Source: Candidatus Parcubacteria bacterium (lineage in GTDB: Bacteria > Patescibacteriota > Patescibacteriia > Patescibacteriales > UBA12075). Taken from it: 64,000 nt of DNA. Numbering within the stretch: the stretch's first letter is position 1; every line of letters begins with the position of its first letter. Below are positions 16,139 through 29,572 of this stretch, piece after piece. The notes under the pieces were generated by a model that was given only the letters and a program-made list of their open reading frames with translations, was not told where the DNA came from and did not search any database. The position numbers were made by a program, and so were the translations under genes. The stretch is from contig PKTK01000006.1 in the NCBI GenBank assembly GCA_002869165.1, positions 2,127-66,126 of the forward strand, in the 5' to 3' direction.

Positions 16139-16154
16139 AAAAATATATTAGTTT

Positions 16155-16499: not shown

Positions 16500-16705
16500 A
16501 ACTGCGCTGCAATATTGGCTGCTTTTTTAGTTGAATATTCCCACTGTTCTCCGGCGCATGTCCCCATGTCCCAGCGAATATGTCGTTCAAATATACACCC
16601 GGTTAGAAAATACCATGGAAAAAAAATGAGGCGTAACGCAAGAAATATTAATATACATAATACAACCCCTCCCCAAAAAACTTTTTCCTTCTTAGTTATG
16701 TACAT
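16490..16705 (-). CDS. small membrane protein (71 aa)
   Basis: The internal ATG (MYITKKEKVFWGGVVLCILIFLAL...) at 16703-16705 lies 1 nt after the stop of the 787-aa gene. It has one or two hydrophobic helices. Confidence 0.4.
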   Translation of the reverse strand: MYITKKEKVFWGGVVLCILIFLALRLIFFPWYFLTGCIFERHIRWDMGTCAGEQWEYSTKKAANIAAQFWP

Positions 16706-16706
16706 A

Positions 16707-19070
16707 TTATTTCTTTTTTTTCTTATCATTTTCTTTTTTCTCAATTTTCTCTGATATCGGACTACTTGCATCAAACATATTCCACATTTCAAATGTAAAC
16801 CAATCAATATCTGTAATTTCAACTCTTTCGATTAACCAATGTTCTGCTCTTTTTAAAATATCGGCCTCTCGCCTATTTTTATAAAATTCATCACGCAATT
16901 GCATTACCTCAACTCTAACAAGCTCTTTCTTAGGCGAAGTCGGCTCCACCCCTTCCGGTAAATTTGAAAAATAATACTCTTCAAATTTTTGTTGAAATAC
17001 TTTTAGATTCACTTTCAAATTCTCGACTATGTCTTTCTTTTTATTTTTCAATGCAAGAATACCAATGTAACATGCTCGTTCCATAATCCTTGGTTCAGTA
17101 TAACCATATTTAGAATCAGACTCTTTCTCAAACATATCCATGGCTAATTTAAATAAAATTTCAATAGCATCTTCAGCTAACTTATCTTGATTGACATCAA
17201 AAGATATTATCACAATAACCGAAACTGCTTCTACTAATTTATCAAAATGTAAATTGGATTCAATTTTTTTTACTTCATGTGTGAACCAGGACGGCTGATG
17301 CAAATACCAACCAAGAATCCTTATCAGCTCTTCTTTTTGTTTATTCCATTTTTCATCCTTAATACAATTAACCATTAGACAAGAAATATCAATAATAGTT
17401 TTGGCAAAAGTTTCAACTAAAGCATGGTCTGCTGTTTTAATTTTTTCCGATATCTCACGAAGACAACGACGATATTCCTCAATTAGACGGACAAAAGTCA
17501 ACTGCGTATTATCTCTTTTATCATTTTTTTCTTTTTGTGCAATCTGATATAGAACATTTGCTAAATGAGAAACCCTATAAAATATTGAGTCCAACTCGAC
17601 GGAGGCATAAATATCTTGTATGCTTTTTGTTCTTATATTTAAAAATACAAAAAGAGTTATAGAACTAATATGATCAAAGTAATTTCTCAAATAAAGCCTC
17701 CTATCTGTAATGCTCTTCAGAACTAAAGCTTGCAATATAATATCGTAAACTTTAATCACTTCCTTCCAAACAACATCAAGTCGATTTGAAATACAATGAA
17801 AAGCGATTTTATCTAAAATATTATAAACAGAATATAAGTCTTGTTCACAACCGTTAGCAATCATCACTGGGATTATTTCTTGATATGCTCGCACTCCTTG
17901 AAACATTGCTTCCATATTATTATTTTTCACCGCACTAACCAATAATGAATCTAGGTATCCCCTGCATTGTGAAAAAATTGGATTGCTTCTTTGTCTGGGA
18001 CCAACATATTTAATATTTTGAGCATTTATAGCTAGGCTTTTCAATATGTTTATTATATGAGTTACGCCTACGCTATCATTTTTATTAATATAAAACTCTC
18101 CCCTAGAAACAAAGTTCTCTAAGTTGGGCGTAAGGAAACTCTGTGAATCGCTCACGCCAACCCAAATAACATCAGCTGAGGGAACCACCAATGACGACTC
18201 ACTCCTTAAGCTAAAATACTTTAATATAATTTTATAAGCAGTTGTTAATGAATTTCTCGCCATTTTCTTTTCTTGAGAATTATAAAGCTTGTCGTGGAAA
18301 TCAAAAAGATAATCTAGTCTATTGTTAATATCTGAAAAATAAGATTGAAATCCCCTGTAGGCGGTCGCCTCTGCTAAACTCTTATCAATAGGCTCACCTG
18401 ATTCACTAGGTTTTGAAGAATACAAGACTGCAACCTCGCTAGCTAACTTCTTTATTTTATTTAAATATTCATAACTACTACTTTCTATAATTTTTAAATT
18501 ATTATTAGGTTTTATTTTTTCTCTTATTCTTCTAAACAAAAAATATAGCAACCAAAAAACAAGACCAACAACAATCAACGAACCTTGAGCGAGAAAGTTT
18601 AAAGTTTCTTTACTAAAAATATTCGAAGAAGATGTAAAGATTATTGCTAGTGAAAAAAATGCAAAAATAAAAAACGTAATCACCCAATATATTGCAGATT
18701 GAAACTTGTCTTTAGCTACTAAATCAAAAAACCCAGCAGATGATCGCTGGGCCGCATTTTGAATTAATAATATAGTTAAGGAGAAAACTATTGCTAATGC
18801 GCTTCCAAACATTGCGCCACTAGCGGTAAAAAATCTAATACCTCCTTCTGAAAGAATGGAGCCATTAGCTAGCTTTAAAATATAAAATGATATTATTATA
18901 ATCAAAGTAAAATATACTATAGATAGAACTGCGAAAGAATAACGATGTATGTATTTATTATACAAGTGCAAAAACAAAGTCTTTATTTTAAACTTTAAAA
19001 ATAAATAATAATAGACAATGATTTTTTTTACTTTACCAAACGCATTAGTAATATTCTTTAATATATTCAT
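16707..19070 (-). CDS. 787-aa membrane protein, unknown function, coupled to hsdR
   Basis: The N-terminal 180 aa or so carry several TM helices, followed by a helical soluble region of about 600 aa and a K-rich tail. The ATG at 19068-19070 overlaps the hsdR 3' end by 26 nt. Confidence 0.6.
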   Translation of the reverse strand: MNILKNITNAFGKVKKIIVYYYLFLKFKIKTLFLHLYNKYIHRYSFAVLSIVYFTLIIIISFYILKLANGSILSEGGIRFFTASGAMFGSALAIVFSLTILLIQNAAQRSSAGFFDLVAKDKFQSAIYWVITFFIFAFFSLAIIFTSSSNIFSKETLNFLAQGSLIVVGLVFWLLYFLFRRIREKIKPNNNLKIIESSSYEYLNKIKKLASEVAVLYSSKPSESGEPIDKSLAEATAYRGFQSYFSDINNRLDYLFDFHDKLYNSQEKKMARNSLTTAYKIILKYFSLRSESSLVVPSADVIWVGVSDSQSFLTPNLENFVSRGEFYINKNDSVGVTHIINILKSLAINAQNIKYVGPRQRSNPIFSQCRGYLDSLLVSAVKNNNMEAMFQGVRAYQEIIPVMIANGCEQDLYSVYNILDKIAFHCISNRLDVVWKEVIKVYDIILQALVLKSITDRRLYLRNYFDHISSITLFVFLNIRTKSIQDIYASVELDSIFYRVSHLANVLYQIAQKEKNDKRDNTQLTFVRLIEEYRRCLREISEKIKTADHALVETFAKTIIDISCLMVNCIKDEKWNKQKEELIRILGWYLHQPSWFTHEVKKIESNLHFDKLVEAVSVIVIISFDVNQDKLAEDAIEILFKLAMDMFEKESDSKYGYTEPRIMERACYIGILALKNKKKDIVENLKVNLKVFQQKFEEYYFSNLPEGVEPTSPKKELVRVEVMQLRDEFYKNRREADILKRAEHWLIERVEITDIDWFTFEMWNMFDASSPISEKIEKKENDKKKKK

Positions 19071-22011
19071 AACTTTTATTAAATAGTTCCGCTTCCTTAT
19101 GTAACTTGTATCGCAATAAGGTTTTTCTTAAAGCTTTTTGGACTTCACGCTCTCCTGCGTTTGTGGTTTGCCACCCCGGAAACCTTACTATTTTCACTAT
19201 CTCATCTATATCATTAACGATTTTTTCAACAATGGCAGGAGTGGCATCAGTTTTTGATTCAAGAAATAATTCGGTTAGTGCTGTCTTCGCGTTTTTGCGC
19301 TCATCCTCTGTTTGGACATCTTTCTCTGCAACCACCACATCACGCGCCAAAGACACTAATTGTTTTAGGAAATCTACACTATTGATAAGTCCTTTCATAG
19401 CCTGATCTCGTAACTTCTCAAGGCGCTCAGACAAGGCAACAAATTGTGGATTATTCTTGTGTTTTTTTAACCGACGTATTAATTCCTTCTCAATCTCTTT
19501 CCCCTTCTCATCTGTATTTCCTTCAGTTAGTGTCTCAATCATGTTCGAATCAAGAATGATTTTATCAAGATCGTCATTCACTACGCCCACTTTCATGTGA
19601 TCATGCATTAATTTTGTAGTCTGAGCACCTAACGCGTGCCAAAGCAAACGCCCGGTATCATCAGATGCGGGCTTAATAGATTGGTAGACTTGCGATAACC
19701 AACGATAGTCTTTTTCATATCGATTAAGGACTGGGTCTGGTGAAACTGACTCCCATATTTTCGACAAAAACACATAGTCTGCAGCAAAAGAATCTTTCTT
19801 CTTATCAGTATTAACACAATCTTGGGCTAACTGAAGACCTTCAAATCCCTCTATACCACGATCTACGCCAGGAAAATGCTTTAGACATTTATCAGTTGCC
19901 TCTGGCAAGATCATTCTTAACTCACTAATATTTGTTACTATAGACTTAACTCGCTCATCATCAAATTCTAACGACTTAGCAACATCATCAAACACTCCAT
20001 AATAATCAACTATTAATCCATGGCTCTTGTCCTTATAAACTCTGTTTGTGCGACAAATTGCTTGAAGCAAACCATGGTCTTTCATTGACTTATCAAGGTA
20101 CATGCACTGCAATATAGGAGCATCAAACCCAGTCAGAAGCTTTGCTGTTACAATTAAAAATTTTAAAGAACTTGAAGGGTCTCGATATGTTTCCAACAAT
20201 CGCTCTTCTTGATCTTTTGATAACTCATACTTGCGCCTAAATTCCAGTTCATCGCTTGCTGAAGTTGATATCACTACTGCAGACGCATCTTCAGGAAACA
20301 ACTTATCAAGTTCTTTTTTATAAATATCACAAGCATACCTATCAGGTGTAACTATCATAGCTTTTAATCCCTGGGGTTCTACTTTAAGTTTATAATGCGA
20401 TGCAATATCCTGGGCAATCATACTAACTCGTTTAGGTGACTTTAAAAAAGCGGACATCTTAGCAGCATGATCAATCAATTGCTTTCTCTCTTTGTCAGAC
20501 AGATGTTGTGTTAATTCAATAAAAGATTTATCTACTCCTACTTTATCAAAATGTATATCAAGTAAACGCGGTTCAAAATGCAACTTCAATGTAGCTCCGT
20601 CATCAACTGATTCTTGAAACGAATATAAAGACATATATCCTCCACTATCTTCAGGGGAACCAAAAGCATAAAATGTATTTCGATCGGCTTTGTTTATTGG
20701 AGTACCTGTTAAACCAAATAAGAAAGCGTTTGGAATAGCAGACCTCATTTTTCTTCCCAAATCTCCTTCCTGAGTTCTGTGTGCCTCATCAACTAGCACG
20801 ATAATATTCTCTCGTTCATTTAATGGTCCGTCCACTTCACGGAATTTATGCATCATAGTAATTATAATTTTCCTTGTATCTTGTTTTAATTTTTCCATTA
20901 GATCTTTTATCGAATCAGCCGGAACAACGTTGGGTATTTCTGTCACACTAAAATTGTTTGACATCTGGCTATCTAAATCTTGCCGATCAATAACCACAAG
21001 CACAGTAGGACTTTTTAATTCTGGATCCTTTCTAAGTTTTTGAGCAGCGAACACAATTAAGTATGATTTTCCAGACCCCTGAAAGTGCCATATGAGACCC
21101 TGCTTCGTCTTGCCCTCTTTAACCCTGTCTACTATCTTGTTAGCTCCTTCGTATTGTTGGTAACGGCTTATTACTTTTATTCTTCGATTCTTTTTATCCG
21201 TTGCATAAAGTGTAAAATTTTGAATAAGATCTAATAAAACCTCCGGTCTAAATTGATCTTTGATAGCCGCATCTATTTCCTTTAGCTCGGTGTGTTTCCT
21301 TTTCACCTCTTCAGTTTTCCAGGGACCCCACAGTTCCAAAGGCATTCGCACAGAACCATAACGATAAGTCTTTCCTTCTGTGGCAAAAGAAAAAAGATTT
21401 GGAACAAAAAGTTGTGGAATAGTATTCTCATAATCATCATGAATATCGACAGCTCCGTCCAACCAGGATATAGCTGGTCGTACAGGAGTTTTTAACTCTC
21501 CGACTACTATCGGGATGCCATTGACTAAGAACACAATATCAGGTCGCTTCTCGGTTTTCCCGATAACTGTATATTGGTTAGTAACTATAAAAGAATTGTT
21601 ATTTATATTTTCAAAATCTATTAAGTATATTGGAACATGTTGATTATTCTCTCCAAAAGGCATAGTTTTTTCTCCTGTCAACCACTTCGAAAACTCTTCA
21701 TTTGCTTTTACTAAACCAACAGAATCAACTGACAGTAAAATAGTTTTTAATTTATATAACACTTCTTCAGCTAATTCGGGCCGTTTCGTTATATCGGGAT
21801 TAATCTTTACCAACGCCTCTCTTAACTCAAGCTCCGCTAAAACATCTTCTGGATCTCTTTTTAAATCATTTGCCGCTCTATATTTCCAAAGATAATCGCC
21901 ATATACCGAAGATAGTTCGACTGTTTCTGTACTTTCTGAAGTGTCTATTTTTACTCCAGAAATTCTATAAATCAAATATGATTCAATTGTATTTAATTCA
22001 TTGAAAGCCAT
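19045..22011 (-). CDS. hsdR: type I restriction enzyme R subunit
   Basis: 988 aa with helicase motif I HFQGSGKS and a DEAH box (VLVDEAHRTQ). Its position after hsdM/hsdS fits. Confidence 0.9.
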   Translation of the reverse strand: MAFNELNTIESYLIYRISGVKIDTSESTETVELSSVYGDYLWKYRAANDLKRDPEDVLAELELREALVKINPDITKRPELAEEVLYKLKTILLSVDSVGLVKANEEFSKWLTGEKTMPFGENNQHVPIYLIDFENINNNSFIVTNQYTVIGKTEKRPDIVFLVNGIPIVVGELKTPVRPAISWLDGAVDIHDDYENTIPQLFVPNLFSFATEGKTYRYGSVRMPLELWGPWKTEEVKRKHTELKEIDAAIKDQFRPEVLLDLIQNFTLYATDKKNRRIKVISRYQQYEGANKIVDRVKEGKTKQGLIWHFQGSGKSYLIVFAAQKLRKDPELKSPTVLVVIDRQDLDSQMSNNFSVTEIPNVVPADSIKDLMEKLKQDTRKIIITMMHKFREVDGPLNERENIIVLVDEAHRTQEGDLGRKMRSAIPNAFLFGLTGTPINKADRNTFYAFGSPEDSGGYMSLYSFQESVDDGATLKLHFEPRLLDIHFDKVGVDKSFIELTQHLSDKERKQLIDHAAKMSAFLKSPKRVSMIAQDIASHYKLKVEPQGLKAMIVTPDRYACDIYKKELDKLFPEDASAVVISTSASDELEFRRKYELSKDQEERLLETYRDPSSSLKFLIVTAKLLTGFDAPILQCMYLDKSMKDHGLLQAICRTNRVYKDKSHGLIVDYYGVFDDVAKSLEFDDERVKSIVTNISELRMILPEATDKCLKHFPGVDRGIEGFEGLQLAQDCVNTDKKKDSFAADYVFLSKIWESVSPDPVLNRYEKDYRWLSQVYQSIKPASDDTGRLLWHALGAQTTKLMHDHMKVGVVNDDLDKIILDSNMIETLTEGNTDEKGKEIEKELIRRLKKHKNNPQFVALSERLEKLRDQAMKGLINSVDFLKQLVSLARDVVVAEKDVQTEDERKNAKTALTELFLESKTDATPAIVEKIVNDIDEIVKIVRFPGWQTTNAGEREVQKALRKTLLRYKLHKEAELFNKSYEYIKEYY

Positions 22012-22012
22012 A

Positions 22013-23197
22013 TTAAAATATTGAATTAATTATATTAGTATTTATTTTTTTCACATCACTATAATAATCAATTAAATTTATAATTTTACTATCAATATCA
22101 TTGATAAAGTCAGTAATTCTTTCTTGTTCCTTTATTGGTGGCATTAAAAGGGGAAATTTTTTAATACTTTTTTCCTTAATTGCAGTAATACCAGTGGTTC
22201 CTACAGTATATTTTTTAATCAAATATTTATATTCCATTGAATTAAACTTGTGAAAAAGAAAATTTGTATTTACATCTTTATCTTTATTTCTAATAACCAA
22301 AACAAAGCTATCAGCGAAGTAACCATTATCAATATTGAACAAACAAGTTCTGCCCAAAGTTCCTTGTCCACCTGTATTAAATAGAATATCGCCATTTTGA
22401 AGCATTTTTTCTTTAACATTATTAAAATCAATATTTATCTTAGCTATCCTTTCCGCTTTTACACCTTCTGGAAATACCGCTCCCGATGGGATCAACTTAT
22501 ATTTTCCGTTTGAACTCTTTTCCGCGTTCACTCCTTTAAACCATTTAATTTCAAATGAACCCAGAACCCCTGTTTTCCAATTTGATGGAGTATTATTTGT
22601 ATACTTACCCTTCGCTAGATTATCATAACCAATCAATAATAATTTCTGTGAAACAACGTCTTTATATGTCTTTAAGCTGTTAATGCAATTTAAAGTGTTT
22701 TCTCGCAAATCGTCTACAGATTTTATTAATTCTAAAAAATCTTTTTGCTGCTTTATGGGTGGCAATAAAAAATTTTGTTTTGAAAGAATGTTCCATTTTA
22801 TGGTTGGTGACAATGACCCCTCCGAAATATCAATTGCTCTATGCATAAAACTATCAGAGTGTAAAAAAAATGGAAATAATTCTGGTAAGATAACATTTGA
22901 CTTTGCTCGTAAAACCATAGAATGTGCAGAACAAATACCATTAAAAGTTGCTATTGCGGCTTTCCTTTGATATGCTCTTCGTTTGCCAAAAATAACATCT
23001 CCTTTATAAATTTTCAACTTCGTCCCAATGACATCAGAAGGATGCCCGTGCCTCTTAATGTGGATTGAATTAGAATCTAAATGTTCAAGCCCAACATAAA
23101 TCTCTGATTCACTTTCGATCGGTTCTACTCTTTCAGAAATATTCTCTGAAATATCATTAAATCTATATTTGTTCCAATTCTGTTTATTTATTTTCAT
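22013..23197 (-). CDS. hsdS: type I R-M specificity subunit
   Basis: 394 aa with two half-repeats, each ending in the conserved spacer helix (LLPPIKQQKDF... and LLMPPIKEQERI...). Confidence 0.85.
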   Translation of the reverse strand: MKINKQNWNKYRFNDISENISERVEPIESESEIYVGLEHLDSNSIHIKRHGHPSDVIGTKLKIYKGDVIFGKRRAYQRKAAIATFNGICSAHSMVLRAKSNVILPELFPFFLHSDSFMHRAIDISEGSLSPTIKWNILSKQNFLLPPIKQQKDFLELIKSVDDLRENTLNCINSLKTYKDVVSQKLLLIGYDNLAKGKYTNNTPSNWKTGVLGSFEIKWFKGVNAEKSSNGKYKLIPSGAVFPEGVKAERIAKINIDFNNVKEKMLQNGDILFNTGGQGTLGRTCLFNIDNGYFADSFVLVIRNKDKDVNTNFLFHKFNSMEYKYLIKKYTVGTTGITAIKEKSIKKFPLLMPPIKEQERITDFINDIDSKIINLIDYYSDVKKINTNIINSIF

Positions 23198-24641
23198 AAT
23201 TAAATATATTATTAATTTCAGATTTAATACTGTTTGATTTTTTTTTCCATTCTTTAATAAATTTTTTTATGTCAATTTCTTTGCTATAGTTTTTATAATT
23301 TCCAACGTTTGAGATATATAACGATATTGTAAGATTTGAATCGAACTTTAAAATTTCATCGATACTTACAATCTTCGCAAATCCTTCAATGTCCATATAA
23401 TTTTTATATGCTTTATATATTTTTGAAATATTTATATCTGTTAGGTAGCTAAGTCCATTAAAATTTTCTACATCGTTTATAGCATTAATGAAAAAAATAT
23501 TGTTTTTTTGCTTTTTTATTTTGTTATTTTTACAAATAAGCAAACAAGCTTCCATAGGAGAGTTGTAAAACAAATTTGGACCTAAACCTATTACAGCTTC
23601 AATCAAGTCAGCCTCAATTAATTTTCTTCTGATTTCTTTTTCTTGATCTCTAAATAATATTCCGTGAGGCCAAAGCACTACTGACCGACCATATTTTTTA
23701 TCCGAACTCTTTAATATATGCTGTTGAAAAGCATAGTCTGCGCACCCCTGAGGTGGAGTACCAAACATATTTCTACCATAAGGATCATGCTCAAAAGAAT
23801 TTCTATCCCAACGCTTAATCGAGTAAGGTGGATTAGCAAGTATTACATTAAACTTTTTAAGTTCATCGTTTTCTATAAAAGCTGGGTTTTTAAGTGTATC
23901 CCCTCTATCAATTTGAAAATCTTCAATCCCATGCATAAACATATTCATCCTAGCTATTGAAGATGTTATTAGATTTATTTCTTGACCATATAGTTTTAAC
24001 GAACGAAATTCTTTACCCTGTCTTTTTAACTCAAGAGCACAATTCAAAAGCATACCTCCTGAACCACAGGTTGGATCATAAACACTTTCTCCAGGTTTTG
24101 GATCCATTAATTTTGTCATTAATTGCACTACTGTTCTGTTTGTATAAAATTCAGCAGCTGTGTGACCGCTGTCATCTGCGAATTTCTTAATTAAAAATTC
24201 ATATCCATCGCCCAGTTTGTCATCAGGTACATTTTGAATTGTTAACTTTTTTTGAGAAAAATGTTCTATCAGATCAATTAATATTTCATCAGATAGCCTT
24301 TGCTTATTAGTCCATGCGGCATCACCAAAAATGCCATACAACACATCCTTGTTTGTCTTTTCAATAGTCTCCATGGCTTTCTGTATCGCCATTCCTATAT
24401 TTTTACTTATCCGTCTGATGTCTTTCCAGTGAGATCCTTCAGGTATTTTAAATCGATGATATTCAGCATAATCATTTCCAGTCTCTTTTTCAGATAACTC
24501 TTTTTCTTCGTCAAAGACATCGCATATACGTTTGTAAAAAAGTAACGGGAATATATACTGTTTATAATCACCAGGATCAATTACTCCTCGCAAAAGAGTT
24601 GCCGCGCCCCATAAATAATTTTCTAATTCATTTTGTTTCAT
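23184..24641 (-). CDS. hsdM: type I R-M methyltransferase subunit, paralog 2
   Basis: 485 aa with an HsdM N-terminal pattern (YIFPLLFYKRI), motif I DPTCGSGGML and motif IV NPPYS. It has EFYTNR where the paralog has EFYTPR. Confidence 0.9.
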   Translation of the reverse strand: MKQNELENYLWGAATLLRGVIDPGDYKQYIFPLLFYKRICDVFDEEKELSEKETGNDYAEYHRFKIPEGSHWKDIRRISKNIGMAIQKAMETIEKTNKDVLYGIFGDAAWTNKQRLSDEILIDLIEHFSQKKLTIQNVPDDKLGDGYEFLIKKFADDSGHTAAEFYTNRTVVQLMTKLMDPKPGESVYDPTCGSGGMLLNCALELKRQGKEFRSLKLYGQEINLITSSIARMNMFMHGIEDFQIDRGDTLKNPAFIENDELKKFNVILANPPYSIKRWDRNSFEHDPYGRNMFGTPPQGCADYAFQQHILKSSDKKYGRSVVLWPHGILFRDQEKEIRRKLIEADLIEAVIGLGPNLFYNSPMEACLLICKNNKIKKQKNNIFFINAINDVENFNGLSYLTDINISKIYKAYKNYMDIEGFAKIVSIDEILKFDSNLTISLYISNVGNYKNYSKEIDIKKFIKEWKKKSNSIKSEINNIFNYENK

Positions 24642-26131
24642 AGTAGGTCAAACTTTTTTAATTGTTTTTTAAAATATTTTTCAGAATCCCACATCTTTTG
24701 TATTGTTATATTTGCCTGCTTTTTTACATCGTCTATTTTAGGTAAAAAATCTTCGATTTCTTTTTCTATATATAATGGAATGCTCAAACTATAATCGTTA
24801 TCCTTGACTTCTTTTAGGCTGGCAATATGTACATAATTTTTTACTTCCGCATATTTATCGTACCATTTATAAATTTGTATAATATGTTTTTTTTCTAAAA
24901 AATTTTGTGCTCGTCCAGTTTTCATTTGCTCACTAGCATCAATAAAGATTATTTTATTAATTTTATTTCTCACTTTCTGTTTTCTTAAAACAATAATACA
25001 TGGAGCAAGGGTAGTACCATAAAATATATTAGACCCTAAACCAATCACTGCTTCAATTAAATCATTCTGAATAATTGATTTGCGTATTTTACCCTCCTTC
25101 CCTTCTCTAGTAAGGGCTCCCTGAGGAAGAACCACTGCCATTCTGCCTACGATTGATTCCATGGAACTAATCATATGTTGTACCCAGGCATAATCCCCGT
25201 TCGAATCATTGGGAACTCCAAATAAATTCCTTCCAAATGGATCGGGCTCCCACTTTTTTGAACCCCACTTCTTCAATGAAAAAGGTGGATTAGCAACGAC
25301 ACAATTAAACTTTGCTAATTTGTCACCATCAAAAAAAGCTGGGTCTCTTAAAGTATCTCCTCGTATAATATTAAAATCTTCAATCCCATGCAAAAACATA
25401 TTCATCCTCACAATGGTTGAAGTAGTCAAGTTCTTTTCCTGACCATAAAGCTTTAAGGTCCTTGCGTCTTTACCAGATTCTTTAATGTGATGACTAGCCT
25501 CTAAAAGCATGCCGCCAGTACCACAAGCAGGATCATAAACCTTATCCCCCTCCTTGGGATCAAGAATGTTTATCATCAAACTAACCACATTTCTTGGTGT
25601 ATAAAACTCTCCTGCTTTTTTGTTTGTTAAATCTGCGAAATGTTTTATCAAATATTCATATGCCTGGCCCAACATATCAGGCTCTACATTTTGATTTGTT
25701 AATTCATATTTAGAAAAATGCTCGATCAAATCAATCAATAATTCGTCTGATAATTTTTCCTTATTACTCCATTGAGTATCACCAAAAATACCATATAAAA
25801 ATTCCTGATTCGTTTTTTCGATTTCTCTAAAAGCATATTGAAGCTTCTGTCCAACATTTATAGTTGTTTCCCTGACATCACGCCAATGACATCCTTCGGG
25901 AATCGTAAATCTATGAAATTCTGGTAATGTTGCATATTCCTCATCTCCGCCTGACTCCTTTAAAGCTTGCTTATATTCTTCTTCGTATACATCTGATATA
26001 CGTTTATAAAATAAAAGTGGAAATATATATGCCTTAAAATCAGCAGCATCTACTGGTCCTTTTAAAATCCAAGCAGCCTTAGCTAAGTACTGTTCAAGTT
26101 GTGATAAAGATATTTGTGTATCCTTAGGCAT
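24638..26131 (-). CDS. hsdM: type I R-M methyltransferase subunit, paralog 1
   Basis: 497 aa with YIFPLLFYKRI, GEFYTPR, DPACGTGGML and NPPFS. It overlaps paralog 2 by 4 nt. Confidence 0.9.
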   Translation of the reverse strand: MPKDTQISLSQLEQYLAKAAWILKGPVDAADFKAYIFPLLFYKRISDVYEEEYKQALKESGGDEEYATLPEFHRFTIPEGCHWRDVRETTINVGQKLQYAFREIEKTNQEFLYGIFGDTQWSNKEKLSDELLIDLIEHFSKYELTNQNVEPDMLGQAYEYLIKHFADLTNKKAGEFYTPRNVVSLMINILDPKEGDKVYDPACGTGGMLLEASHHIKESGKDARTLKLYGQEKNLTTSTIVRMNMFLHGIEDFNIIRGDTLRDPAFFDGDKLAKFNCVVANPPFSLKKWGSKKWEPDPFGRNLFGVPNDSNGDYAWVQHMISSMESIVGRMAVVLPQGALTREGKEGKIRKSIIQNDLIEAVIGLGSNIFYGTTLAPCIIVLRKQKVRNKINKIIFIDASEQMKTGRAQNFLEKKHIIQIYKWYDKYAEVKNYVHIASLKEVKDNDYSLSIPLYIEKEIEDFLPKIDDVKKQANITIQKMWDSEKYFKKQLKKFDLL

Positions 26132-26311
26132 AATTTAATATATAAAAAATAAATAAAAAAAGAATTGAATTGATTTAATTCTCTTTTAATTTACCACTTT
26201 TTAATACCTTAAGTCAAGGTCAAAATCGCTAATTCTCGCTGAAAACTAGGGTGTTTTGTCAAGTGTTAGGTATAATTTACCGTGTAGATTGATATAAATT
26301 ATACGACAACA

Positions 26312-26349
26312 ACAAAAAAGCCGAGGAATTCATATTGAATACCCCGGCT
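26312..26349 (-). terminator. rho-independent terminator-like hairpin
   Basis: The minus strand reads GCCGGGG-(15 nt)-CCTCGGC followed by TTTTTTGTTG, 9 nt after the stop of the 26358..26696 gene. Confidence 0.55.
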
Positions 26350-26357
26350 TTAATGAT

Positions 26358-26696
26358 TTATGCCTGCTTTGTATACCTACAATTCGGATAAGACTTACAT
26401 CCATAGAAGAATCCATTGCGCCCGCTTCTCTGGACAAGCTTGTTCCCGCACTCAGGACAAGTGCTAGACTCATCTTCCTCATCTGGGAATAAATCATTAG
26501 CTGTAATTCTTTTCGGTTCCGGTTCTGCGCCAATGCTAGCCTGACTATCCATATGGTTCTTTAATTGACTAAAAAGCTGAATAGCTTCGGCGACATCGTC
26601 TGTCCTGATATTAAGAAGTGTACTACGCTCAAGAATGTTTCCAAGCGCATCTGTTTTGACTGACCCATTGATTTGGATTTTGTTAATTGTTTCCAT
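26358..26696 (-). CDS. protein with C-terminal topoisomerase-type C4 zinc finger
   Basis: 112 aa. CPECGNKLVQRSGRNGFFYGCKSYPNCRY matches the Topo C4 finger pattern. Confidence 0.65.
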   Translation of the reverse strand: METINKIQINGSVKTDALGNILERSTLLNIRTDDVAEAIQLFSQLKNHMDSQASIGAEPEPKRITANDLFPDEEDESSTCPECGNKLVQRSGRNGFFYGCKSYPNCRYTKQA

Positions 26697-26700
26697 AATT

Positions 26701-26862
26701 TTAATCCGTCTTTAGACCGCACCGACGACAAACCGAGAAGTAATAAACTTCATCGTTCTCATAATCGAAAGCCGGAACTGTAAGAAACTTATGATTACAG
26801 TTTCTTTGTTTAACTTTTTCAACTTTGATTACAGCAGTGTCGATACTTAATTGTTTAGACAT
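26701..26862 (-). CDS. possible 53-aa zinc-ribbon-like peptide
   Basis: My hand translation gives MSKQLSIDTAVIKVEKVKQRNCNHKF...VCRRCGLKTD. The stop lies 4 nt before the next gene's ATG. It is below the track cutoff. Confidence 0.3.
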   Translation of the reverse strand: MSKQLSIDTAVIKVEKVKQRNCNHKFLTVPAFDYENDEVYYFSVCRRCGLKTD

Positions 26863-26949
26863 TGTATTATTAAATTAATTATAAAGTGAAGGAAAGCTAG
26901 AATAAGTAATACCCTAGCTAACCACTCACCAATTTCCCTAGCGCCCACG

Positions 26950-27210
26950 CTAAACTTTAGTTACCTGACTGGAAACGAAATCCATTCCATCCAGAAAGTA
27001 ATTAAATACTGAGGATCTATTAGCCTCGTCTTTAGTCATGAGTTCTCCTTGTCCCGATAACACGTAGTCATCAAACAAGCCGGGAACGTTGCGATTAAAT
27101 CGCGTTCGTAGGTCGCAGTCGGAAGCAATCCGGGCAACCACGCTTTTTATATCCATTAGTTTTACTTTATGAATTATAAAACCGCCCTGTGTTAGAGCGG
27201 TTATTAGCAC
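26950..27210 (-). CDS. hypothetical protein
   Basis: 86 aa ORF starting 9 nt after the upstream stop. An alternative start is MDIKSVV. Confidence 0.4.
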   Translation of the reverse strand: MLITALTQGGFIIHKVKLMDIKSVVARIASDCDLRTRFNRNVPGLFDDYVLSGQGELMTKDEANRSSVFNYFLDGMDFVSSQVTKV

Positions 27211-27219
27211 GACAAGACT

Positions 27220-27510
27220 TTAAGTCTCAATCTTTGATACCTGTTTATGATAAAAAAGATTTACGACTCTTGGATAACGGGTTACGACGTTGCCATTATC
27301 ATCCGTCTTCTCAACAATTGTAGTTGACTTGAGAGCTTTCTCTCCTTTATTAACCTTGTAACCGGCTTTGGCCCAGCTACGAAAAGTTAATGCATTAGAA
27401 TAGGGGTCGTAATTAGCTACTTCCTCCTCGCCCCATCTGTCTGCAATTTGTGCTGCTACTCGACGATAGGTCTCTTGTGAGCCGCGATAAGTTGATCTTG
27501 GTTTTTCCAT
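27220..27510 (-). CDS. ArdC N-terminal-domain-like (ssDNA-binding, antirestriction-type) protein
   Basis: 96 aa. ALTFRSWAKAGYKVNKGEKALKSTTIV resembles the W..G..V.KGEK core of the ArdC_N domain. The protein is short, so this is domain-level only. Confidence 0.45.
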   Translation of the reverse strand: MEKPRSTYRGSQETYRRVAAQIADRWGEEEVANYDPYSNALTFRSWAKAGYKVNKGEKALKSTTIVEKTDDNGNVVTRYPRVVNLFYHKQVSKIET

Positions 27511-27685
27511 ACGATTGTTAACTTAATAATTAGTAACGCCCCCAAATTTGTCGACCTTTAAAAAAATAATTAAGGGGTCAATACTATATGCCCATCCGCT
27601 TCCGATACCGTTGGAACAGATATTGTTTATATTAAATAAAAAAAAGACCATCAGTATAAAACTAATGATCATATTGTGTGGTTGT

Positions 27686-27714
27686 GGACACCAAAGACGC
27701 CATGGACGCCATCC
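27686..27714 (+). repeat. tandem GGACRCC-type short repeats (cluster 1)
   Basis: GGACACCAAA-GACGCCAT-GGACGCCAT in the 528-nt non-coding gap downstream of the integrase. Confidence 0.5.
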
Positions 27715-28017
27715 TAGCTACAAAAAAGGGCCTCCCCCCGAGGTCTAAAAGAGTAGATACCAGGAAGTCTGGGTATATTCAAGCCTATTTTTTTTATAAC
27801 ACCAAAAACACGAACATGCGTTCGTATTTAAATCATAAAAAGTGTGTAAAAAGTATAGCAAACTTATAGCATTTCTTATGCAAAGTTATATTGGCTATTA
27901 AATAACTAATATTAAATAAAACAATAGCAAATTTATTCTTATAGCCGGCTTTAACGTGGTAACAAGCTTGTGGGAATAAACAAAACACCCCTTCTCCCCC
28001 TAGAATCTAGTCATGAA

Positions 28018-28035
28018 AGACGTGAAGGACGTGAA
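28018..28035 (+). repeat. tandem (A/G)GACGTGAA repeats (cluster 2)
   Basis: AGACGTGAA-GGACGTGAA, ending 3 nt before the integrase stop codon. Confidence 0.5.
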
Positions 28036-28038
28036 AAA

Positions 28039-28932
28039 CTACATATTATTTAGTGGATGCTTGATGATTTGACCTCTTAAATGCTCTGCGCTTGCTGATA
28101 AATAGATGGTTGTTGTCTTAATATCAGAGTGCCCCATCATTCTAGACAAGGAATAGATATCACATCCCCCTTCAAGCATAAGTGTGGCAAAGGTATGTCT
28201 AAGCTTATGACTAGAGAACTTTATACCAGAAGCTTCCTTTATCTTCTCAATCAAACGTTTTAAACCTATCTTTGTAAAACCCATATCCCTGTTTAAAGAA
28301 GTAAAAAACTCCGGACAGGTCTTTTTAAGTCTCGTTCTTTCACGCAAGTATGTTTTTAGTATTTCCGCCAAGCGGTAGTTCATAGGAATAATTCTATCTT
28401 TACTCCCTTTTCCTTGTCTTACAAATATTGTTAAGTTTTCCAGATCAACATCAGCAAACTTTAAATTCAATAGTTCTTGTCGCCTCAGCCCGGCGAAAAT
28501 AAAGGTGGCAAATATTGCATGGTTTCTATATCTAAGAAATGTATAGGGGTAAGGATAATTATAAGCTACCTCCAAGAGCCGAATCGCATCCTGTTTGGTT
28601 AGCTTGGGTGGTAAAGATTTTGTTAGCTTAGGAACTTCTATGTCCTCTATCGGGTTGAAAGATATATGCTTTTCCTTGATACACCAAGTAAAGAAAACAT
28701 TAAGAGTGTTATGGTAGCTAATAAAGGTAGCGGGTTTCCATTTGTATTTTGTTCTCCCGGTAACGAAGAAAGCCTTAACTCTAGAATCATCTAGCTGAGA
28801 CATGCGCCTAATTTTTGTACGGTTACAAAAAATCTGTACCACTTGGTTATAGCGATATGTAGTATCCGGAGACAAACCCCGAATATATTTAGCATGATCA
28901 CAGAACTGTTGAACTAATATTTTTATATCCAT
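28039..28932 (-). CDS. tyrosine integrase, tRNA-adjacent (paralog of 7149..8042)
   Basis: 297 aa with HKLRHTFATLMLEGG...GHSDIKTTTIYL. It lies immediately downstream of the tRNA-Thr copy C terminator. Confidence 0.9.
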   Translation of the reverse strand: MDIKILVQQFCDHAKYIRGLSPDTTYRYNQVVQIFCNRTKIRRMSQLDDSRVKAFFVTGRTKYKWKPATFISYHNTLNVFFTWCIKEKHISFNPIEDIEVPKLTKSLPPKLTKQDAIRLLEVAYNYPYPYTFLRYRNHAIFATFIFAGLRRQELLNLKFADVDLENLTIFVRQGKGSKDRIIPMNYRLAEILKTYLRERTRLKKTCPEFFTSLNRDMGFTKIGLKRLIEKIKEASGIKFSSHKLRHTFATLMLEGGCDIYSLSRMMGHSDIKTTTIYLSASAEHLRGQIIKHPLNNM

Positions 28933-28960
28933 ACAAAAAAGCCTGCAGTATTATCCGCAG
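28933..28960 (-). terminator. hairpin plus T-tract between tRNA-Thr copy C and the integrase ATG
   Basis: The minus strand reads CTGCGG-ATAATA-CTGCAG (one G-U pair) followed by GCTTTTTTGT and then the ATG at 28932. The architecture matches 8043..8068. Confidence 0.45.
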
Positions 28961-28972
28961 ACTTTTTCTTTG

Positions 28973-29251
28973 AGCCGAAACCGGGACTTGAACCCGGGAC
29001 CCCTTCCTTCGTTTACACCCTATTTTATATAACACATATATAGGGGCTAGACTGTATCTCAGACATATCCCTTCTTATCGGGACTTAGTCTCTCTTGTCA
29101 GTCGTTCGGGCGTATTGTTAATTGACGCCACGGTCTTAACCTTGTGTCAGGTCTTTAACCGTTATTCGAGATTCGATATCAGGTTTCCCTGATAAAGGGC
29201 AAGAGACAAACGTCTCACCATGGAAGTGCTCTACCACTGAGCTATTTCGGC
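28973..29251 (-). tRNA. tRNA-Thr(GGU), copy C, interrupted by a 207-nt intron
   Basis: Exon 1 (29251->29217) is GCCGAAA-TA-GCTC-AGTGGTA-GAGC-A-CTTCC-ATGGT. Exon 2 (29009->28973) is AA-GGAAG-GGGTC-CCGGG-TTCAAGT-CCCGG-TTTCGGC-T. All stems are Watson-Crick and no CCA is encoded. Confidence 0.8.
29010..29216 (-). ncRNA. group I-like self-splicing intron in the anticodon loop (between nt 36 and 37)
   Basis: The 5' exon ends in U and the intron ends in G. A P1-like hairpin forms as GGT|GAGAC-GTTT-GTCTC-TT-GCC, placing a U-G pair at the splice site. A P2-like hairpin is TATCAGG-GAAA-CCTGATA. GTCAATT and AGAGACTAAGTC resemble conserved group I core segments. Its size is similar to known bacterial tRNA introns of about 200 nt. 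Confidence 0.6.
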
Positions 29252-29271
29252 ATGTTTTAATTGTACAAAAT

Positions 29272-29296
29272 GATGTCCTTGATGTCCATGACGTCC
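29272..29296 (-). repeat. tandem GGACRTC-type repeats (cluster 3)
   Basis: The minus strand reads GGACGTCAT-GGACATCAA-GGACATC, between att junction B and tRNA copy C. Confidence 0.5.
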
Positions 29297-29381
29297 AGAG
29301 CCCGCGACCACTTTTGACATGGAGATGGTCACTACCTATACTTTCTTAGCTAGCCTTAGCTCAAACCACTAGACCACTTCT

Positions 29382-29419
29382 TTACCATGGTAGTGCTCTA
29401 CCAAGTGAGCTACATCGGC
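29382..29419 (-). tRNA. 5' half of the split tRNA-Thr(GGU), copy B
   Basis: The minus strand reads GCCGATG-TA-GCTC-ACTTGGTA-GAGC-A-CTACC-ATGGTAA, then non-tRNA sequence (AGAAGTGGTCTAGTGG...). Confidence 0.8.
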
Positions 29420-29535: not shown

Positions 29536-29572
29536 TTACCATGGAAGTGCTCTACCACTGAGCTATATCGGC
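29536..29572 (-). tRNA. tRNA-Thr(GGU) 5' portion, copy A, with no matching 3' half in the window
   Basis: The minus strand reads GCCGATA-TA-GCTC-AGTGGTA-GAGC-A-CTTCC-ATGGTAA, then TAAACAGGTCTAGTGGTTT..., which is not a tRNA 3' half. Confidence 0.65.

What the first reader, a model, noticed from the sequence alone, without database searches (positions are those of the whole stretch)
29010..29216. A group-I-like intron sits exactly inside the 7-nt recombination core of the only intact tRNA-Thr
Copy C is interrupted between anticodon nt 36 and nt 37 (ATGGT^AA) by 207 nt with group I hallmarks.
- The exon ends in U and the intron ends in G.
- A P1 hairpin presents a U-G pair at the splice site.
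- A GAAA-capped P2 hairpin is present, along with GTCAATT and AGAGACTAAGTC core-like segments.

Bacterial group I introns are known in the anticodon loops of a few tRNAs (Leu, fMet, Ile, Arg). I do not recall one in tRNA-Thr, nor one carried on an integrative element.

At the DNA level the intron separates the two halves of the stem-loop (CTTCC-ATGGTAA-GGAAG). That stem-loop was used as the attachment site in copies A and B. The intron could therefore make the innermost element's tRNA immune to further integration while the spliced tRNA stays functional. This would be a selective role for a tRNA intron.
Basis: partly seen in the sequence, partly recalled or inferred. Interest (0 to 1): 0.8.

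Follow-up and report, generated by a model that had tools for sequence, protein, structure and literature searches.

The report
Island-borne tRNA-Thr with group I intron
The 207-base insert is a genuine but already described kind of self-splicing intron in a threonine tRNA gene; what is new is that the gene rides on a mobile island that destroys the host's own copy, and the intron splits the very site such islands attack.

Summary
Window 29251..28973 (- strand) is a tRNA-Thr(GGU) gene with a 207-nt insert (29216..29010) between nt 36 and 37.

The insert is a group I intron.
- 107 distinct homologues share P1-P9, including the P3/P7 pseudoknot. 97% of cells pair and 29 of 45 pairs show compensatory changes.
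- The splice-site U•G and the terminal G never vary.
- L2 and P8 co-vary as tetraloop and receptor.

Rfam RF00028 misses the intron. This is the known "divergent" Patescibacteria tRNA-Thr(GGU) 36/37 class (Williams 2020; Nakagawa 2026), so the intron itself is not new.

The context is new.
- The gene is cargo of a ~21-kb island (integrase 28932..28039) inserted in the anticodon loop of an earlier island's intron-less tRNA-Thr (halves at 29419..29382 and 8124..8083). That earlier island had replaced the chromosomal copy (29572..29536).
- These islands do not rebuild the target. They bring a replacement, like phage "tRNA-dependent lysogeny".
- About half of related islands carry the intron.
- Intron-bearing cargo keeps the target's anticodon stem (11/13). 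Intron-less cargo has it changed (0/4 same).

The parts
28973..29251 (-). Complete tRNA-Thr(GGU) gene 'C', with intron. It is cargo of island 2.
   Evidence: ARAGORN with introns allowed, and the cloverleaf of the joined exons.
29217..29251 (-). 5' exon (nt 1-36), ending ..CUUCC-AUGGU.
29010..29216 (-). Group I intron, 207 nt (intron position i = window coordinate 29217-i). The terminal G is at 29010.
28973..29009 (-). 3' exon (nt 37-76), starting AA-GGAAG.
29198..29219 (-). P1: exon G-G-U plus intron G1-A2 paired with intron U15-U16-G17-C18-C19. U36•G17 is the splice-site wobble.
   Evidence: Columns 3-7 with 75-79 of A2. The U•G pair is present in 107/107 and the two inner pairs covary.
29177..29194 (-). 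P2 hairpin with GAAA (GNRA) tetraloop L2 (intron 23-40).
   Evidence: All 8 pairs covary. L2 is GNRA in 105/107.
29168..29170 (-). P3 5' strand (C47 U48 C49). It forms a pseudoknot with 29092..29094.
   Evidence: All 3 pairs show compensatory changes and 99% of cells pair. The U48-A124 pair is C-G in L004.
29130..29162 (-). P4-J4/5-P5-J5/4-P4' domain (intron 55-87).
   Evidence: P5 covaries. P4 was held fixed by the search pattern.
29109..29129 (-). P6 hairpin (intron 88-108).
   Evidence: The outer pairs covary: GC 89, AU 15, CG 3.
29099..29105 (-). P7 5' strand: A112, bulged C113, G114-G118. This is the presumed guanosine-binding helix.
   Evidence: It has the same build as G(A)GACUA/UAGUCC in curated seeds. 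The A112-U168 pair is G-C in 2 sequences.
29092..29094 (-). P3 3' strand (G123 A124 G125).
29061..29091 (-). P8 (intron 126-156) with a CUAAG/UAUG 11-nt-type tetraloop receptor.
   Evidence: All 4 outer pairs covary. The receptor-like motif goes with L2 = GAAA: 47/55 against 2/52, p = 2.5e-19.
29049..29060 (-). J8/7 (GAGAUA) and the P7 3' strand (CAGUCU), intron 157-168.
29018..29045 (-). P9 hairpin (intron 172-199).
   Evidence: All 5 pairs covary.
29536..29572 (-). Fragment A: the displaced 5' half plus anticodon loop of the chromosomal tRNA-Thr(GGU). This is attL of island 1.
29382..29419 (-). Fragment B: 5' half plus anticodon loop of island 1's intron-less tRNA-Thr. This is attL of island 2.
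8083..8124 (-). B': anticodon loop plus 3' half that completes B (GGTAG pairs with CTACC; CATCGGC pairs with GCCGATG). This is attR of island 2.
8125..29381 (-). Island 2 (~21.3 kb): a 130-nt arm, tRNA C, integrase, ArdC-like and Zn-ribbon genes, and type I restriction-modification genes.
   Evidence: It is bounded by the matching halves B and B'.
28039..28932 (-). Tyrosine integrase of island 2 (297 aa).
   Evidence: Pfam PF00589 at 1.7e-30. There are 2261 homologues at E<1e-40.
7149..8057 (-). Tyrosine integrase of island 1 (302 aa), 62% identical to the island 2 integrase. It follows B' just as the island 2 integrase follows C.
28935..28960 (-). Terminator-like hairpin plus U-run after tRNA C.
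   Evidence: Sequence. It aligns to terminator-type Rfam models.

Best explanation
The 207-nt insert is a self-splicing group I intron. It belongs to the divergent class that sits between nt 36 and 37 of tRNA-Thr(GGU) in Patescibacteria.

Inferred splicing route: the pre-tRNA folds into P1-P9. A free guanosine bound in P7 attacks after U36, which is held in a U•G wobble with intron G17. The terminal G207 then takes the same site and the exons are joined, giving a normal tRNA-Thr(GGU).

Shown by sequence: the gene is not the chromosome's own.
- It is cargo of a ~21-kb integrative island whose tyrosine integrase recombines within the 7-nt anticodon loop ATGGTAA of tRNA-Thr(GGU).
- These islands do not rebuild the target. 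They leave a dead 5' half at one end and a dead 3' half at the other, and they supply a whole replacement gene ~130 nt inside the left end.
- Here this happened twice. Island 1 split the chromosomal gene (A) and brought the intron-less B. Island 2 then split B and brought C.

Inferred, about 45% likely: in DNA the intron separates CTTCC-ATGGT from AA-GGAAG by 207 bp. C therefore no longer offers the inverted-arm/7-bp-overlap site the integrase needs. This protects the replacement gene (and intron-bearing resident genes) from further integration and from recombination with the island's own att sites. Intron-less islands reach the same end by changing the anticodon stem.
For: Group I identity:
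- At least 120 metagenomic homologues were found, 118/124 of them in tRNA-Thr(GGU) at 36/37, always with U-1 and a terminal G.
- On 107 distinct sequences 97.0% of cells pair and 29/45 pairs have double changes. The covariation score is 0.473, against 0.148 for shuffles and about 0.1 for slid partners, and 0/500 shuffles reach it. The P3 pseudoknot covaries.
- P7 with its bulge and J8/7 match the curated seeds.
- L2 and the P8 receptor co-vary, p = 2.5e-19.
- The family HMM hits the seeds Pgr210 and Mba143 at E about 5e-4.
- A CM built only from curated bacterial group I cores scores relatives up to 32.2 bits (E = 1.4e-6). The window copy scores 13.0 bits (E = 5e-4 within the gene), with a full-length alignment that places every helix where covariation does.
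- In viral contig L008 the same intron interrupts a major head protein gene. Removing it at GGT|...G| restores a 344-aa ORF that matches phrog_1357 end to end.
- The literature describes the same class, missed by RF00028.

Island structure:
- B and B' form a perfect tRNA and enclose C plus the island 2 integrase.
- The two integrases are 62% identical.
- L059 has matching host halves 11.5 kb apart, with cargo exons 100% identical to them.
- 10 of the 11 metagenomic intron-tRNA loci followed by this integrase family have an upstream 5' half by the pattern search, and none of the loci without one does. A BLAST check adds one weak candidate, L128, whose contig ends before an integrase could be seen.

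Masking idea:
- In an intron-blind, integrase-based sample, 6 of 11 island-borne Thr(GGU) genes have the intron. This compares with 3 of 95 complete Patescibacteria genomes, p = 2e-5.
- Cargo and target share the anticodon stem in 11/13 intron-bearing islands and 0/4 intron-less ones, p = 0.006.
- In L131 the cargo equals the target through the acceptor and D arms, but 3 of 5 anticodon-stem pairs are changed.
Against: - There is no Rfam group I hit at any threshold.
- The window copy scores only 13 bits with the seed-derived CM. Window-wide that is chance level: E = 0.12, and an unrelated site scores 13.4.
- P3 is only 3 bp.
- No splicing data exist for this class. PMC13011429 tested Asn and Asp introns, not Thr.

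Against the masking role:
- Most intron-bearing tRNA-Thr genes found are not on islands.
- Half of the islands manage without the intron.
- In this very window the cargo C and its actual target B differ in the anticodon stem anyway (CTTCC against CTACC).
- The counts are small, the loci are related to one another, and the 3/95 base rate comes from a different sample.
- All 18 displaced halves seen are intron-less, but with a low base rate that has no statistical weight.
Confidence: 0.8

Rival explanations
1. Neutral passenger. The intron is real and splices, but it has no role in recombination. The islands simply picked up local tRNA-Thr(GGU) genes from lineages where this intron is common, and the intron's position in the att core is a coincidence of both using the anticodon loop.
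For: - The intron is widespread in ordinary chromosomal tRNA-Thr(GGU) genes. At least 70 of 82 loci have no integrase, and all but possibly one (L128) have no displaced half.
- 5 of 11 islands carry intron-less genes.
- Group I introns favour anticodon loops in general.
- Cargo exons identical to the host's (L059) fit local capture.
Against: - The intron is enriched on islands: 6/11 against 3/95.
- Intron-less cargo always has a changed anticodon stem, while intron-bearing cargo usually keeps the target's. In L131 the change is confined to that stem. Neutral capture does not predict this.
Confidence: 0.4
2. Islands as vehicles. The main beneficiary is the intron. It has no homing endonuclease, and it spreads between genomes because the islands destroy the resident intron-less gene and leave the intron-bearing copy as the only tRNA-Thr(GGU). 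This is not exclusive of masking.
For: - The intron is 169-235 nt with no ORF.
- Twelve or more independent island loci replace an intron-less resident gene with an intron-bearing one.
- Intron status is scattered across integrases of 54-89% identity.
- PMC13011429 regards horizontal spread of such introns as limited for lack of endonucleases.
Against: Non-island copies show no relic 5' halves upstream, except possibly L128. There is therefore no direct sign that they descend from decayed islands.
Confidence: 0.3
3. Dead gene. The insert is a decayed intron or other insertion, C is a pseudogene, and tRNA-Thr(GGU) function is supplied elsewhere in the genome.
For: The window copy has the lowest score among the relatives tested with the seed-derived CM (13 bits). 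No expression data exist.
Against: - The window copy has every invariant column of the 107-sequence alignment.
- Its one unusual P3 base (U48) is compensated by A124.
- It scores 145 bits against the family HMM, as high as any member.
- The exons give a perfect cloverleaf.
- Both earlier copies at the locus are split.
Confidence: 0.04
4. Not group I. The insert is a structured RNA of another class, or a miniature mobile DNA element that merely resembles a group I intron.
For: No Rfam group I hit. A profile HMM of Williams' curated seeds finds nothing.
Against: - The helix order is canonical, with a P3/P7 pseudoknot, an invariant U•G and terminal G, a bulged P7 and J8/7 AAGAUA.
- The L2-P8 docking pair co-varies.
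- The seed-derived CM gives up to 32 bits on relatives.
- There are no terminal repeats or target duplication.
- No other Rfam ribozyme matches.
Confidence: 0.03

Closest known systems
Divergent group I introns of Patescibacteria tRNA-Thr(GGU), position 36/37 ('Thr.5Ug' in Williams 2020, bioRxiv 10.1101/2020.01.27.920355; Nakagawa et al. 2026, mSystems, PMC13011429)
   Same: - Same tRNA, same insertion point, same U-1 and terminal G, and similar length.
- Same host phylum: the window's integrase is named 'Candidatus Parcubacteria bacterium' and the nearest locus is a Patescibacteria MAG.
- Same failure of RF00028.
- Same ARAGORN miscall as Arg(GCG) 34/35.
   Different: Nothing in the intron itself. 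Those papers report three cases in complete genomes and do not mention islands or integrases ('island' occurs 0 times in PMC13011429). I could not check whether their three cases are island-borne.
Classical bacterial tRNA group I introns (Azoarcus tRNA-Ile, Anabaena tRNA-Leu; subgroup IC3)
   Same: - About 200 nt with no ORF, located in the anticodon loop.
- P1-P9 core, and P7 of the form G(A)GACU/AGUC with a bulge.
- A GNRA L2 that co-varies with a receptor in P8. That L2 docks into P8 in Azoarcus is from my own knowledge.
   Different: - P3 is only 3 bp, against 5-7 bp.
- J3/4-P4 is GAAUA-ACGGU rather than AAAUU-CGGGG.
- The family HMM matches only the Pgr210 and Mba143 type seeds, not the IC3 seeds.
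- PMC13011429 groups them with IA-type Patescibacteria introns.
tRNA-dependent lysogeny of actinobacteriophages (Guerrero-Bustamante & Hatfull 2024, mBio, PMC10865867)
   Same: - A tyrosine integrase, with attB inside a tRNA gene.
- A common core too short to rebuild the tRNA.
[quoted passage not shown]
   Different: - The elements here look like genomic islands (type I restriction-modification, ArdC-like genes), not evident phages. The host is Patescibacteria.
- The replacement gene sits ~130 nt from the att site.
- In about half the cases the replacement gene is split by a group I intron.
- Dependence on the tRNA is inferred here, not shown.
Classical tRNA-targeting genomic islands with anticodon-loop crossover (Islander/TIGER framework, PMC4383910)
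   Same: The integrase gene lies next to the tRNA gene. The crossover is in the symmetric anticodon stem-loop. A displaced tRNA fragment marks the far end. Tandem or nested arrays form.
   Different: Classical islands restore the gene with a matching 3' part at the junction. Here the arm next to the core is only a decayed likeness of a 3' half (Rfam tRNA 14-17 bits in the window; 29.4 bits in L004). A separate complete gene does the job.

Membership tests
Group I intron | 5' splice site after a U held in a U•G wobble in P1 | tested here: met
   Window U36•G17. The pair is U•G in 107/107 sequences and the adjacent P1 pairs covary.
Group I intron | Intron ends in G (omega G) | tested here: met
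   G at 29010. It is G in 118/118 mapped homologues.
Group I intron | Conserved core P3-P9 in the canonical order, with a P3/P7 pseudoknot | tested here: met
   9 helices, 97% of cells paired, and 29/45 pairs with compensatory change. The three P3 pairs all covary. Controls are far lower.
Group I intron | P7 guanosine-binding helix with a bulged nucleotide after the first pair, and J8/7 of about 6 nt | tested here: met
   A(C)GACUG/CAGUCU compares with G(A)GACUA/UAGUCC in 26 curated seeds. J8/7 is GAGAUA against AAGAUA. Actual binding of G was not tested.
Group I intron | Match to the Rfam model RF00028 (Intron_gpI) | tested here: not met
   No hit at the gathering score, nor at E<=10 on 901 nt or 246 nt, nor in three relatives. 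The literature reports the same for this class.
Group I intron | Match to a covariance model built from curated bacterial tRNA/tmRNA group I introns | tested here: inconclusive
   Model R1 was built from the core columns of Williams' seeds. The window copy scores 13.0 bits, which is E = 0.12 window-wide and 5e-4 within the gene. Relatives score 14.6-32.2 bits, with E down to 1.4e-6. The original gpI_bact_tRNA.cm could not be run here.
Group I intron | Guanosine-dependent self-splicing | not testable with these tools
   Indirect only. Removing the homologous intron at U|...G| restores a full-length major head protein ORF in L008.
Patescibacteria tRNA-Thr(GGU) 36/37 divergent group I introns | Host gene tRNA-Thr(GGU), insertion between nt 36 and 37 | tested here: met
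Patescibacteria tRNA-Thr(GGU) 36/37 divergent group I introns | Patescibacteria host | tested here: met
   The window's integrase is identical to a protein of 'Candidatus Parcubacteria bacterium'. The nearest genome locus is a Patescibacteria MAG.
Patescibacteria tRNA-Thr(GGU) 36/37 divergent group I introns | Escapes RF00028; ARAGORN tends to miscall Arg(GCG) 34/35 | tested here: met
   Compare Table 1 of PMC13011429.
tRNA-dependent lysogeny-type integrative element | Tyrosine integrase recombining at an attB inside a tRNA gene | tested here: met
   Pfam PF00589. The split tRNA halves B and B' flank the element.
tRNA-dependent lysogeny-type integrative element | Common core too short to rebuild the tRNA at a junction | tested here: met
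   Identity between attL and attR is the 7-nt ATGGTAA. The A+arm and B+arm junctions score 17.1 and 14.3 bits as tRNA, against a threshold of 29.
tRNA-dependent lysogeny-type integrative element | [quoted passage not shown] | tested here: met
   C lies inside island 2 and B inside island 1. The same holds in 15 or more related loci.
tRNA-dependent lysogeny-type integrative element | The element's tRNA is required for survival of the recipient | not testable with these tools
   No other tRNA-Thr(GGU) is present in the 64-kb window. The rest of the genome was not seen.
tRNA-dependent lysogeny-type integrative element | The element is a temperate phage | tested here: inconclusive
   The ORFs scanned are an integrase, ArdC-like and Zn-ribbon proteins, and type I R-M genes, with no phage structural hits among the 10 tested. 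Most of island 2 and all of island 1 were not scanned.

The most novel reading that the evidence does not exclude
The intron works as an attB mask. Because it splits the anticodon stem-loop only at the DNA level, a tRNA-Thr(GGU) gene becomes invisible to a very large family of anticodon-loop integrases while the spliced tRNA is unchanged. Islands that destroy the resident gene use the intron to protect their own replacement copy. Hosts keep it to protect resident genes. The islands in turn carry an endonuclease-less intron from genome to genome. This would give a selective reason for the puzzling persistence of tRNA introns in the tiny genomes of Patescibacteria.
Probability: 0.35. Interest if true: 0.8.

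Novelty: new variant of a known kind. Interest (0 to 1): 0.6.

Why it matters
The intron alone is a further member of a described class and would not be news. Three things seen here are not in the papers I could read.

1. In Patescibacteria a very large integrase family (2261 close homologues) drives islands that break tRNA-Thr(GGU) in the anticodon loop and bring a whole replacement gene. This is the logic of phage tRNA-dependent lysogeny, now seen in a different phylum and a different kind of element.

2. About half of these replacement genes carry the group I intron exactly inside the recombination core. The ones that lack it have a changed anticodon stem instead.

3. The islands offer a route for horizontal spread of an intron that has no homing endonuclease.

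Together these turn 'why do reduced genomes keep tRNA introns?' into a question that recombination assays and a survey of public data can answer.

There is also a practical point. Standard tRNA and Rfam scans find no tRNA and no intron here. Such loci are read as missing tRNA-Thr and lower genome-completeness estimates.

Tried and rejected
1. My first P3 model paired AUCUCG (45-50) with UGAGAU (156-161). I rejected it because L004 breaks that pairing, while UCUC/GAGA becomes UCCC/GGGA in step.

2. I rejected this because AGAC/GUCU covaries as the P8 stem and GACUG/CAGUC is the invariant P7.

3. DNA patterns built on that wrong reading found nothing: GAGACTAAGTC..GAGATACAGTC in viral contigs, the same idea in metagenomes, and GACTGACAAGNGAGNCTAAG in viral contigs.

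4. blastn of the gene against 50,697 phage records matched the exons only.

5. A profile HMM of Williams' 26 seeds found no hit in the window or in the intron alone. hmmalign gave a meaningless alignment.

6. Four Rfam searches gave no group I hit.

7. I first assumed the islands carry only a 5' or 3' tRNA half. I dropped this once B' was found 21 kb away.

8. A viral-contig scan with the integrase alignment gave only 24-28% identical relatives, which were of no use.

9. I searched for relic 5' halves upstream of the non-island intron-tRNA genes. Only generic D-arm matches turned up, plus one possible case, L128.

10. A bulge-helix-bulge (archaeal-type) intron was considered. I set it aside because the position is 36/37, the host is bacterial, and the group I core is present.
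Full report
**1. What is in the sequence**

On the minus strand, 29251..29217 reads GCCGAAATAGCTCAGTGGTAGAGCACTTCCATGGT. This is a tRNA 5' part up to the third anticodon base. 29009..28973 reads AAGGAAGGGGTCCCGGGTTCAAGTCCCGGTTTCGGCT, which is the rest of the anticodon loop and the 3' part.

The joined exons fold into a normal cloverleaf. With default settings ARAGORN finds nothing, and Rfam at gathering thresholds finds nothing in 64 kb. The insert is strongly structured: minimum free energy -64.4 kcal/mol against -42.9 ± 4.0 for shuffles, z = -5.4.

**2.

Rfam's Intron_gpI gives no match at E <= 10 on 901 nt or on 246 nt around the insert, nor in three related loci. A profile HMM made from the 26 curated bacterial tRNA/tmRNA group I introns of Williams (2020; supplement read) also finds nothing.

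Nakagawa et al. (PMC13011429) state that tRNA-Thr introns of Patescibacteria at 36/37 "cannot be detected by either RF00028.cm or ARAGORN". In their table ARAGORN gives Arg(GCG) 34/35 for two of their three cases. I saw exactly this miscall in dozens of homologues.

**3. Homologues and structure**

An integrase-based scan of one genome per species found three loci. One is a Patescibacteria MAG (L004) whose integrase is 89% identical. It has the same tRNA gene with a 207-nt insert that differs from the window's at many positions.

AGAC/GUCU changes to AGGC/GCCU, so it is a stem (P8). UCUC/GAGA changes to UCCC/GGGA (P3). GACUG/CAGUC stays fixed, and an A-U pair beyond a bulge becomes G-C (P7).

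118 of 124 copies lie in tRNA-Thr(GGU) at 36/37. All follow GGU and all end in G.

On a MAFFT alignment of 107 distinct introns (A2), RNAalifold recovers P1, P2, P4, P5, P6, P7, P8 and P9. I added the P3 pseudoknot and the outer P7 pair and counted pairs:

| Measure | Result |
|---|---|
| Cells forming a standard pair | 97.0% |
| Pairs with compensatory changes | 29 of 45 |
| Covariation score | 0.473 |
| Same score, shuffled partners | 0.148 |
| Same score, slid partners | about 0.1 |
| Shuffles reaching the observed value | 0 of 500 |

All three P3 pairs covary. The splice-site U•G is present in 107 of 107. P4 and P7 never vary, but they were fixed by the search pattern and so say nothing either way.

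The layout is canonical for group I:
- J6/7 is 3 nt.
- P7 is A(C)GACUG/CAGUCU, against G(A)GACUA/UAGUCC in the curated seeds.
- J7/3 is ACAA.
- P3 is short, at 3 bp.
- P8 follows, then J8/7 GAGAUA (AAGAUA in the seeds), then P9 and the terminal G.

L2 is a GNRA tetraloop in 105 of 107. When L2 is GAAA, P8 carries a CUAAG/UAUG-type internal loop in 47 of 55 sequences. When L2 is another GNRA, only 2 of 52 do (p = 2.5e-19). That is the signature of an L2-P8 tetraloop-receptor contact. The window copy has the textbook form.

Two links tie the family to accepted group I introns.
- The family's own HMM hits two curated seeds, Pgr210 and Mba143, over P2 to P7' at E about 5e-4.
- A covariance model I built only from the core columns of the curated seeds scores relatives at 32.2, 23.5, 22.4, 21.1 and 19.3 bits, with E from 1.4e-6 to 2.6e-3. 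The window copy scores 13.0 bits. That is not significant window-wide (E = 0.12, with an unrelated site at 13.4 bits). It is significant within the gene (E = 5e-4), and the full-length alignment places each helix where covariation does.

In viral contig L008 the same intron interrupts a major head protein gene. Cutting at GGT|...CACACG| restores a 344-aa ORF that matches phrog_1357 over its whole length. I therefore take the group I assignment as secure (about 0.95). Splicing itself is not shown.

**4. The intron is not new**

Williams' seed alignment contains Thr.5Ug, meaning tRNA-Thr with the intron after loop position 5, a U before it and a terminal G. Nakagawa et al. list three Patescibacteria genomes with Thr(GGU) 36/37 introns, call them divergent group I introns, and place them near the IA-type tRNA introns of that phylum. 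The window's integrase is identical to a protein of 'Candidatus Parcubacteria bacterium'.

**5. The surroundings: nested islands that replace the tRNA**

Reading down the minus strand:
- triose-phosphate isomerase, fructose-bisphosphate aldolase and a TPR protein
- fragment A
- 116 nt
- fragment B
- 130 nt
- gene C with the intron
- a terminator-like hairpin
- an integrase (28932..28039)
- ArdC-like and Zn-ribbon genes
- a type I restriction-modification system

A and B are 5' halves that run through the whole anticodon loop ATGGTAA and then diverge. At 8124..8083 lies ATGGTAA-GGTAG-...-CATCGGCT. Its anticodon-stem and acceptor strands pair with B, not with A or C. It is followed by a terminator-like hairpin and a second integrase that is 62% identical to the first.

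So island 2 (8125..29381) is inserted in the anticodon loop of B, and C is inside island 2. B in turn belongs to island 1, which is inserted in the chromosomal gene A. A's 3' half is not in the window.

The junctions do not rebuild a tRNA: they score 17 and 14 bits against a threshold of 29. Each island instead carries a whole tRNA-Thr(GGU). This is how the 'tRNA-dependent lysogeny' of some actinobacteriophages works (PMC10865867). Here it occurs in what look like genomic islands of Patescibacteria.

**6. Is this arrangement recurrent?**

Among the metagenomic intron-bearing genes with more than 1.2 kb downstream, 11 of 82 are followed at once by an integrase of this family (48-89% identity in the aligned part). 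By the pattern search, 10 of those 11, and no others, have an upstream 5' half ending [A/T]TGGTAA. A BLAST check adds one weak candidate, L128.

In L059 both displaced halves are present, 11.5 kb apart. The cargo gene's exons are 100% identical to them, so the intron is the only difference between the cargo gene and the site that was used.

The integrase family is very large: 2261 proteins at E < 1e-40. I sampled ten homologues on long contigs without regard to introns and added the genome-scan loci and the two islands in the window. The result for integrases next to tRNA-Thr(GGU):

| Status | Loci | Count |
|---|---|---|
| Intron present | island 2, L004, L132, L134, L136, L141 | 6 |
| Intron absent | island 1, L005, L131, L139, L144 | 5 |

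Three further integrases sit next to other tRNAs: Lys-UUU, Thr-CGU and Thr-UGU.

**7. Does the intron protect the site?**

The mechanism is plausible from what is established for tyrosine recombinases. They need two inverted core-binding arms around a 6-8 bp overlap that matches the partner site. In C the arms CTTCC and GGAAG are 207 bp apart and the overlap reads ATGGTGA.

Comparative support comes from three observations.
- Six of 11 island-borne genes have the intron, against 3 of 95 complete Patescibacteria genomes (p = 2e-5).
- In intron-bearing islands the cargo gene has the same anticodon stem as the displaced target in 11 of 13 loci. In intron-less islands it is the same in 0 of 4 (p = 0.006). 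In the intron-blind subset the figures are 4/5 against 0/4 (p = 0.048).
- In L131 the cargo and target are identical through the acceptor and D arms, but three of five anticodon-stem pairs are replaced.

Island-borne copies thus look as if they must avoid being an attB, either by recoding the stem or by carrying the intron. In this window the intron-less B was hit by a second island.

Several cautions apply.
- The numbers are small and the loci are related to one another.
- The base rate comes from a different sample.
- Most intron-bearing genes are not on islands.
- In this window C differs from its actual target B in the stem anyway.
- All 18 displaced halves are intron-less, but that carries no weight if introns are rare among targets.

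I put the masking role at about 0.4-0.45. The neutral-passenger view is about as likely. A third reading, that islands spread an endonuclease-less intron, is compatible with either.

**8. Verdict**

The finding is real, and the 'group I' label is right although two named motifs were misassigned. The intron is a further member of a described class. The island context and the pattern linking intron presence to attB identity appear to be new and can be tested directly. Interest is moderate to good (0.6), not the 0.8 claimed, because the headline item, a group I intron in tRNA-Thr, is already known.

Noticed in passing
L008:8361-8521 (-) and L007:9475-9630 (-), IMG/VR contigs: The same intron family interrupts protein-coding genes of viruses, after an exon GGT. 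In L008 the gene is a major head protein (phrog_1357, E = 1.5e-32), and removing the intron restores a 344-aa ORF. The intron family is therefore shared between phage genes and tRNA-Thr of (probably) their hosts.
   Followed up: partly
window 29253-29381 and 29420-29535 (-); L004:2549-2680: The island arms just after the ATGGTAA core look like decayed tRNA 3' halves (AAAGAAGTGGTCTAGTGG.. against AAGGAAGGGGTCCCGGG..). In L004 the junction even reaches the Rfam tRNA threshold (29.4 bits). This suggests descent from islands that once rebuilt the tRNA.
   Followed up: partly
window 19045-26131 (-): Island 2 carries a type I restriction-modification set with two adjacent HsdM-like methylase genes (24638-26131 and 23184-24641), an HsdS (22013-23197) and a 988-aa ORF (19045-22011), plus ArdC-like and topoisomerase Zn-ribbon ORFs (27220-27510, 26358-26696).
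   Followed up: no
window 54195-54294 (+): The seed-derived group I core model gives 13.4 bits here (E = 0.089), slightly above the true intron. The alignment lacks P8 and most of J8/7 and looks like chance. The family HMM finds nothing there.
   Followed up: partly
L003 (Logan SRR5894289 contig), start of contig = window 29246: One public assembly of the same organism breaks exactly inside the 5' exon of gene C. The tandem 5' halves probably break assemblies, so such loci may be under-represented on contigs.
   Followed up: no
L138, L140, L006 (upstream of integrase homologues): Integrases 58-66% identical to the window's sit next to tRNA-Lys(UUU), tRNA-Thr(CGU) and tRNA-Thr(UGU). The family has therefore switched target tRNAs. 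No introns were seen in these.
   Followed up: no
L059:10494-11396 and L132/L136 downstream of the integrase: Several islands carry a second, distant tyrosine recombinase (29% identity in L059, at the far end next to the displaced 3' half; convergent recombinase genes in L132 and L136).
   Followed up: no
A2 columns 90-93 and 224-267 (window 29184-29187 and 29061-29091): The identity of the L2 tetraloop and the form of P8 switch together across the family: GAAA goes with an 11-nt-type receptor, and GUAA, GCAA or GCGA go with a plain helix. This is a clean natural example of tetraloop-receptor co-variation.
   Followed up: yes
L009-L128 (ARAGORN calls): ARAGORN assigns many of these tRNA-Thr(GGU) genes to Arg(GCG), His(GUG), Pro(GGG) or Leu(GAG) by shifting the intron boundary. 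Default scans miss them altogether, which would inflate 'missing tRNA' counts in Patescibacteria genomes.
   Followed up: partly
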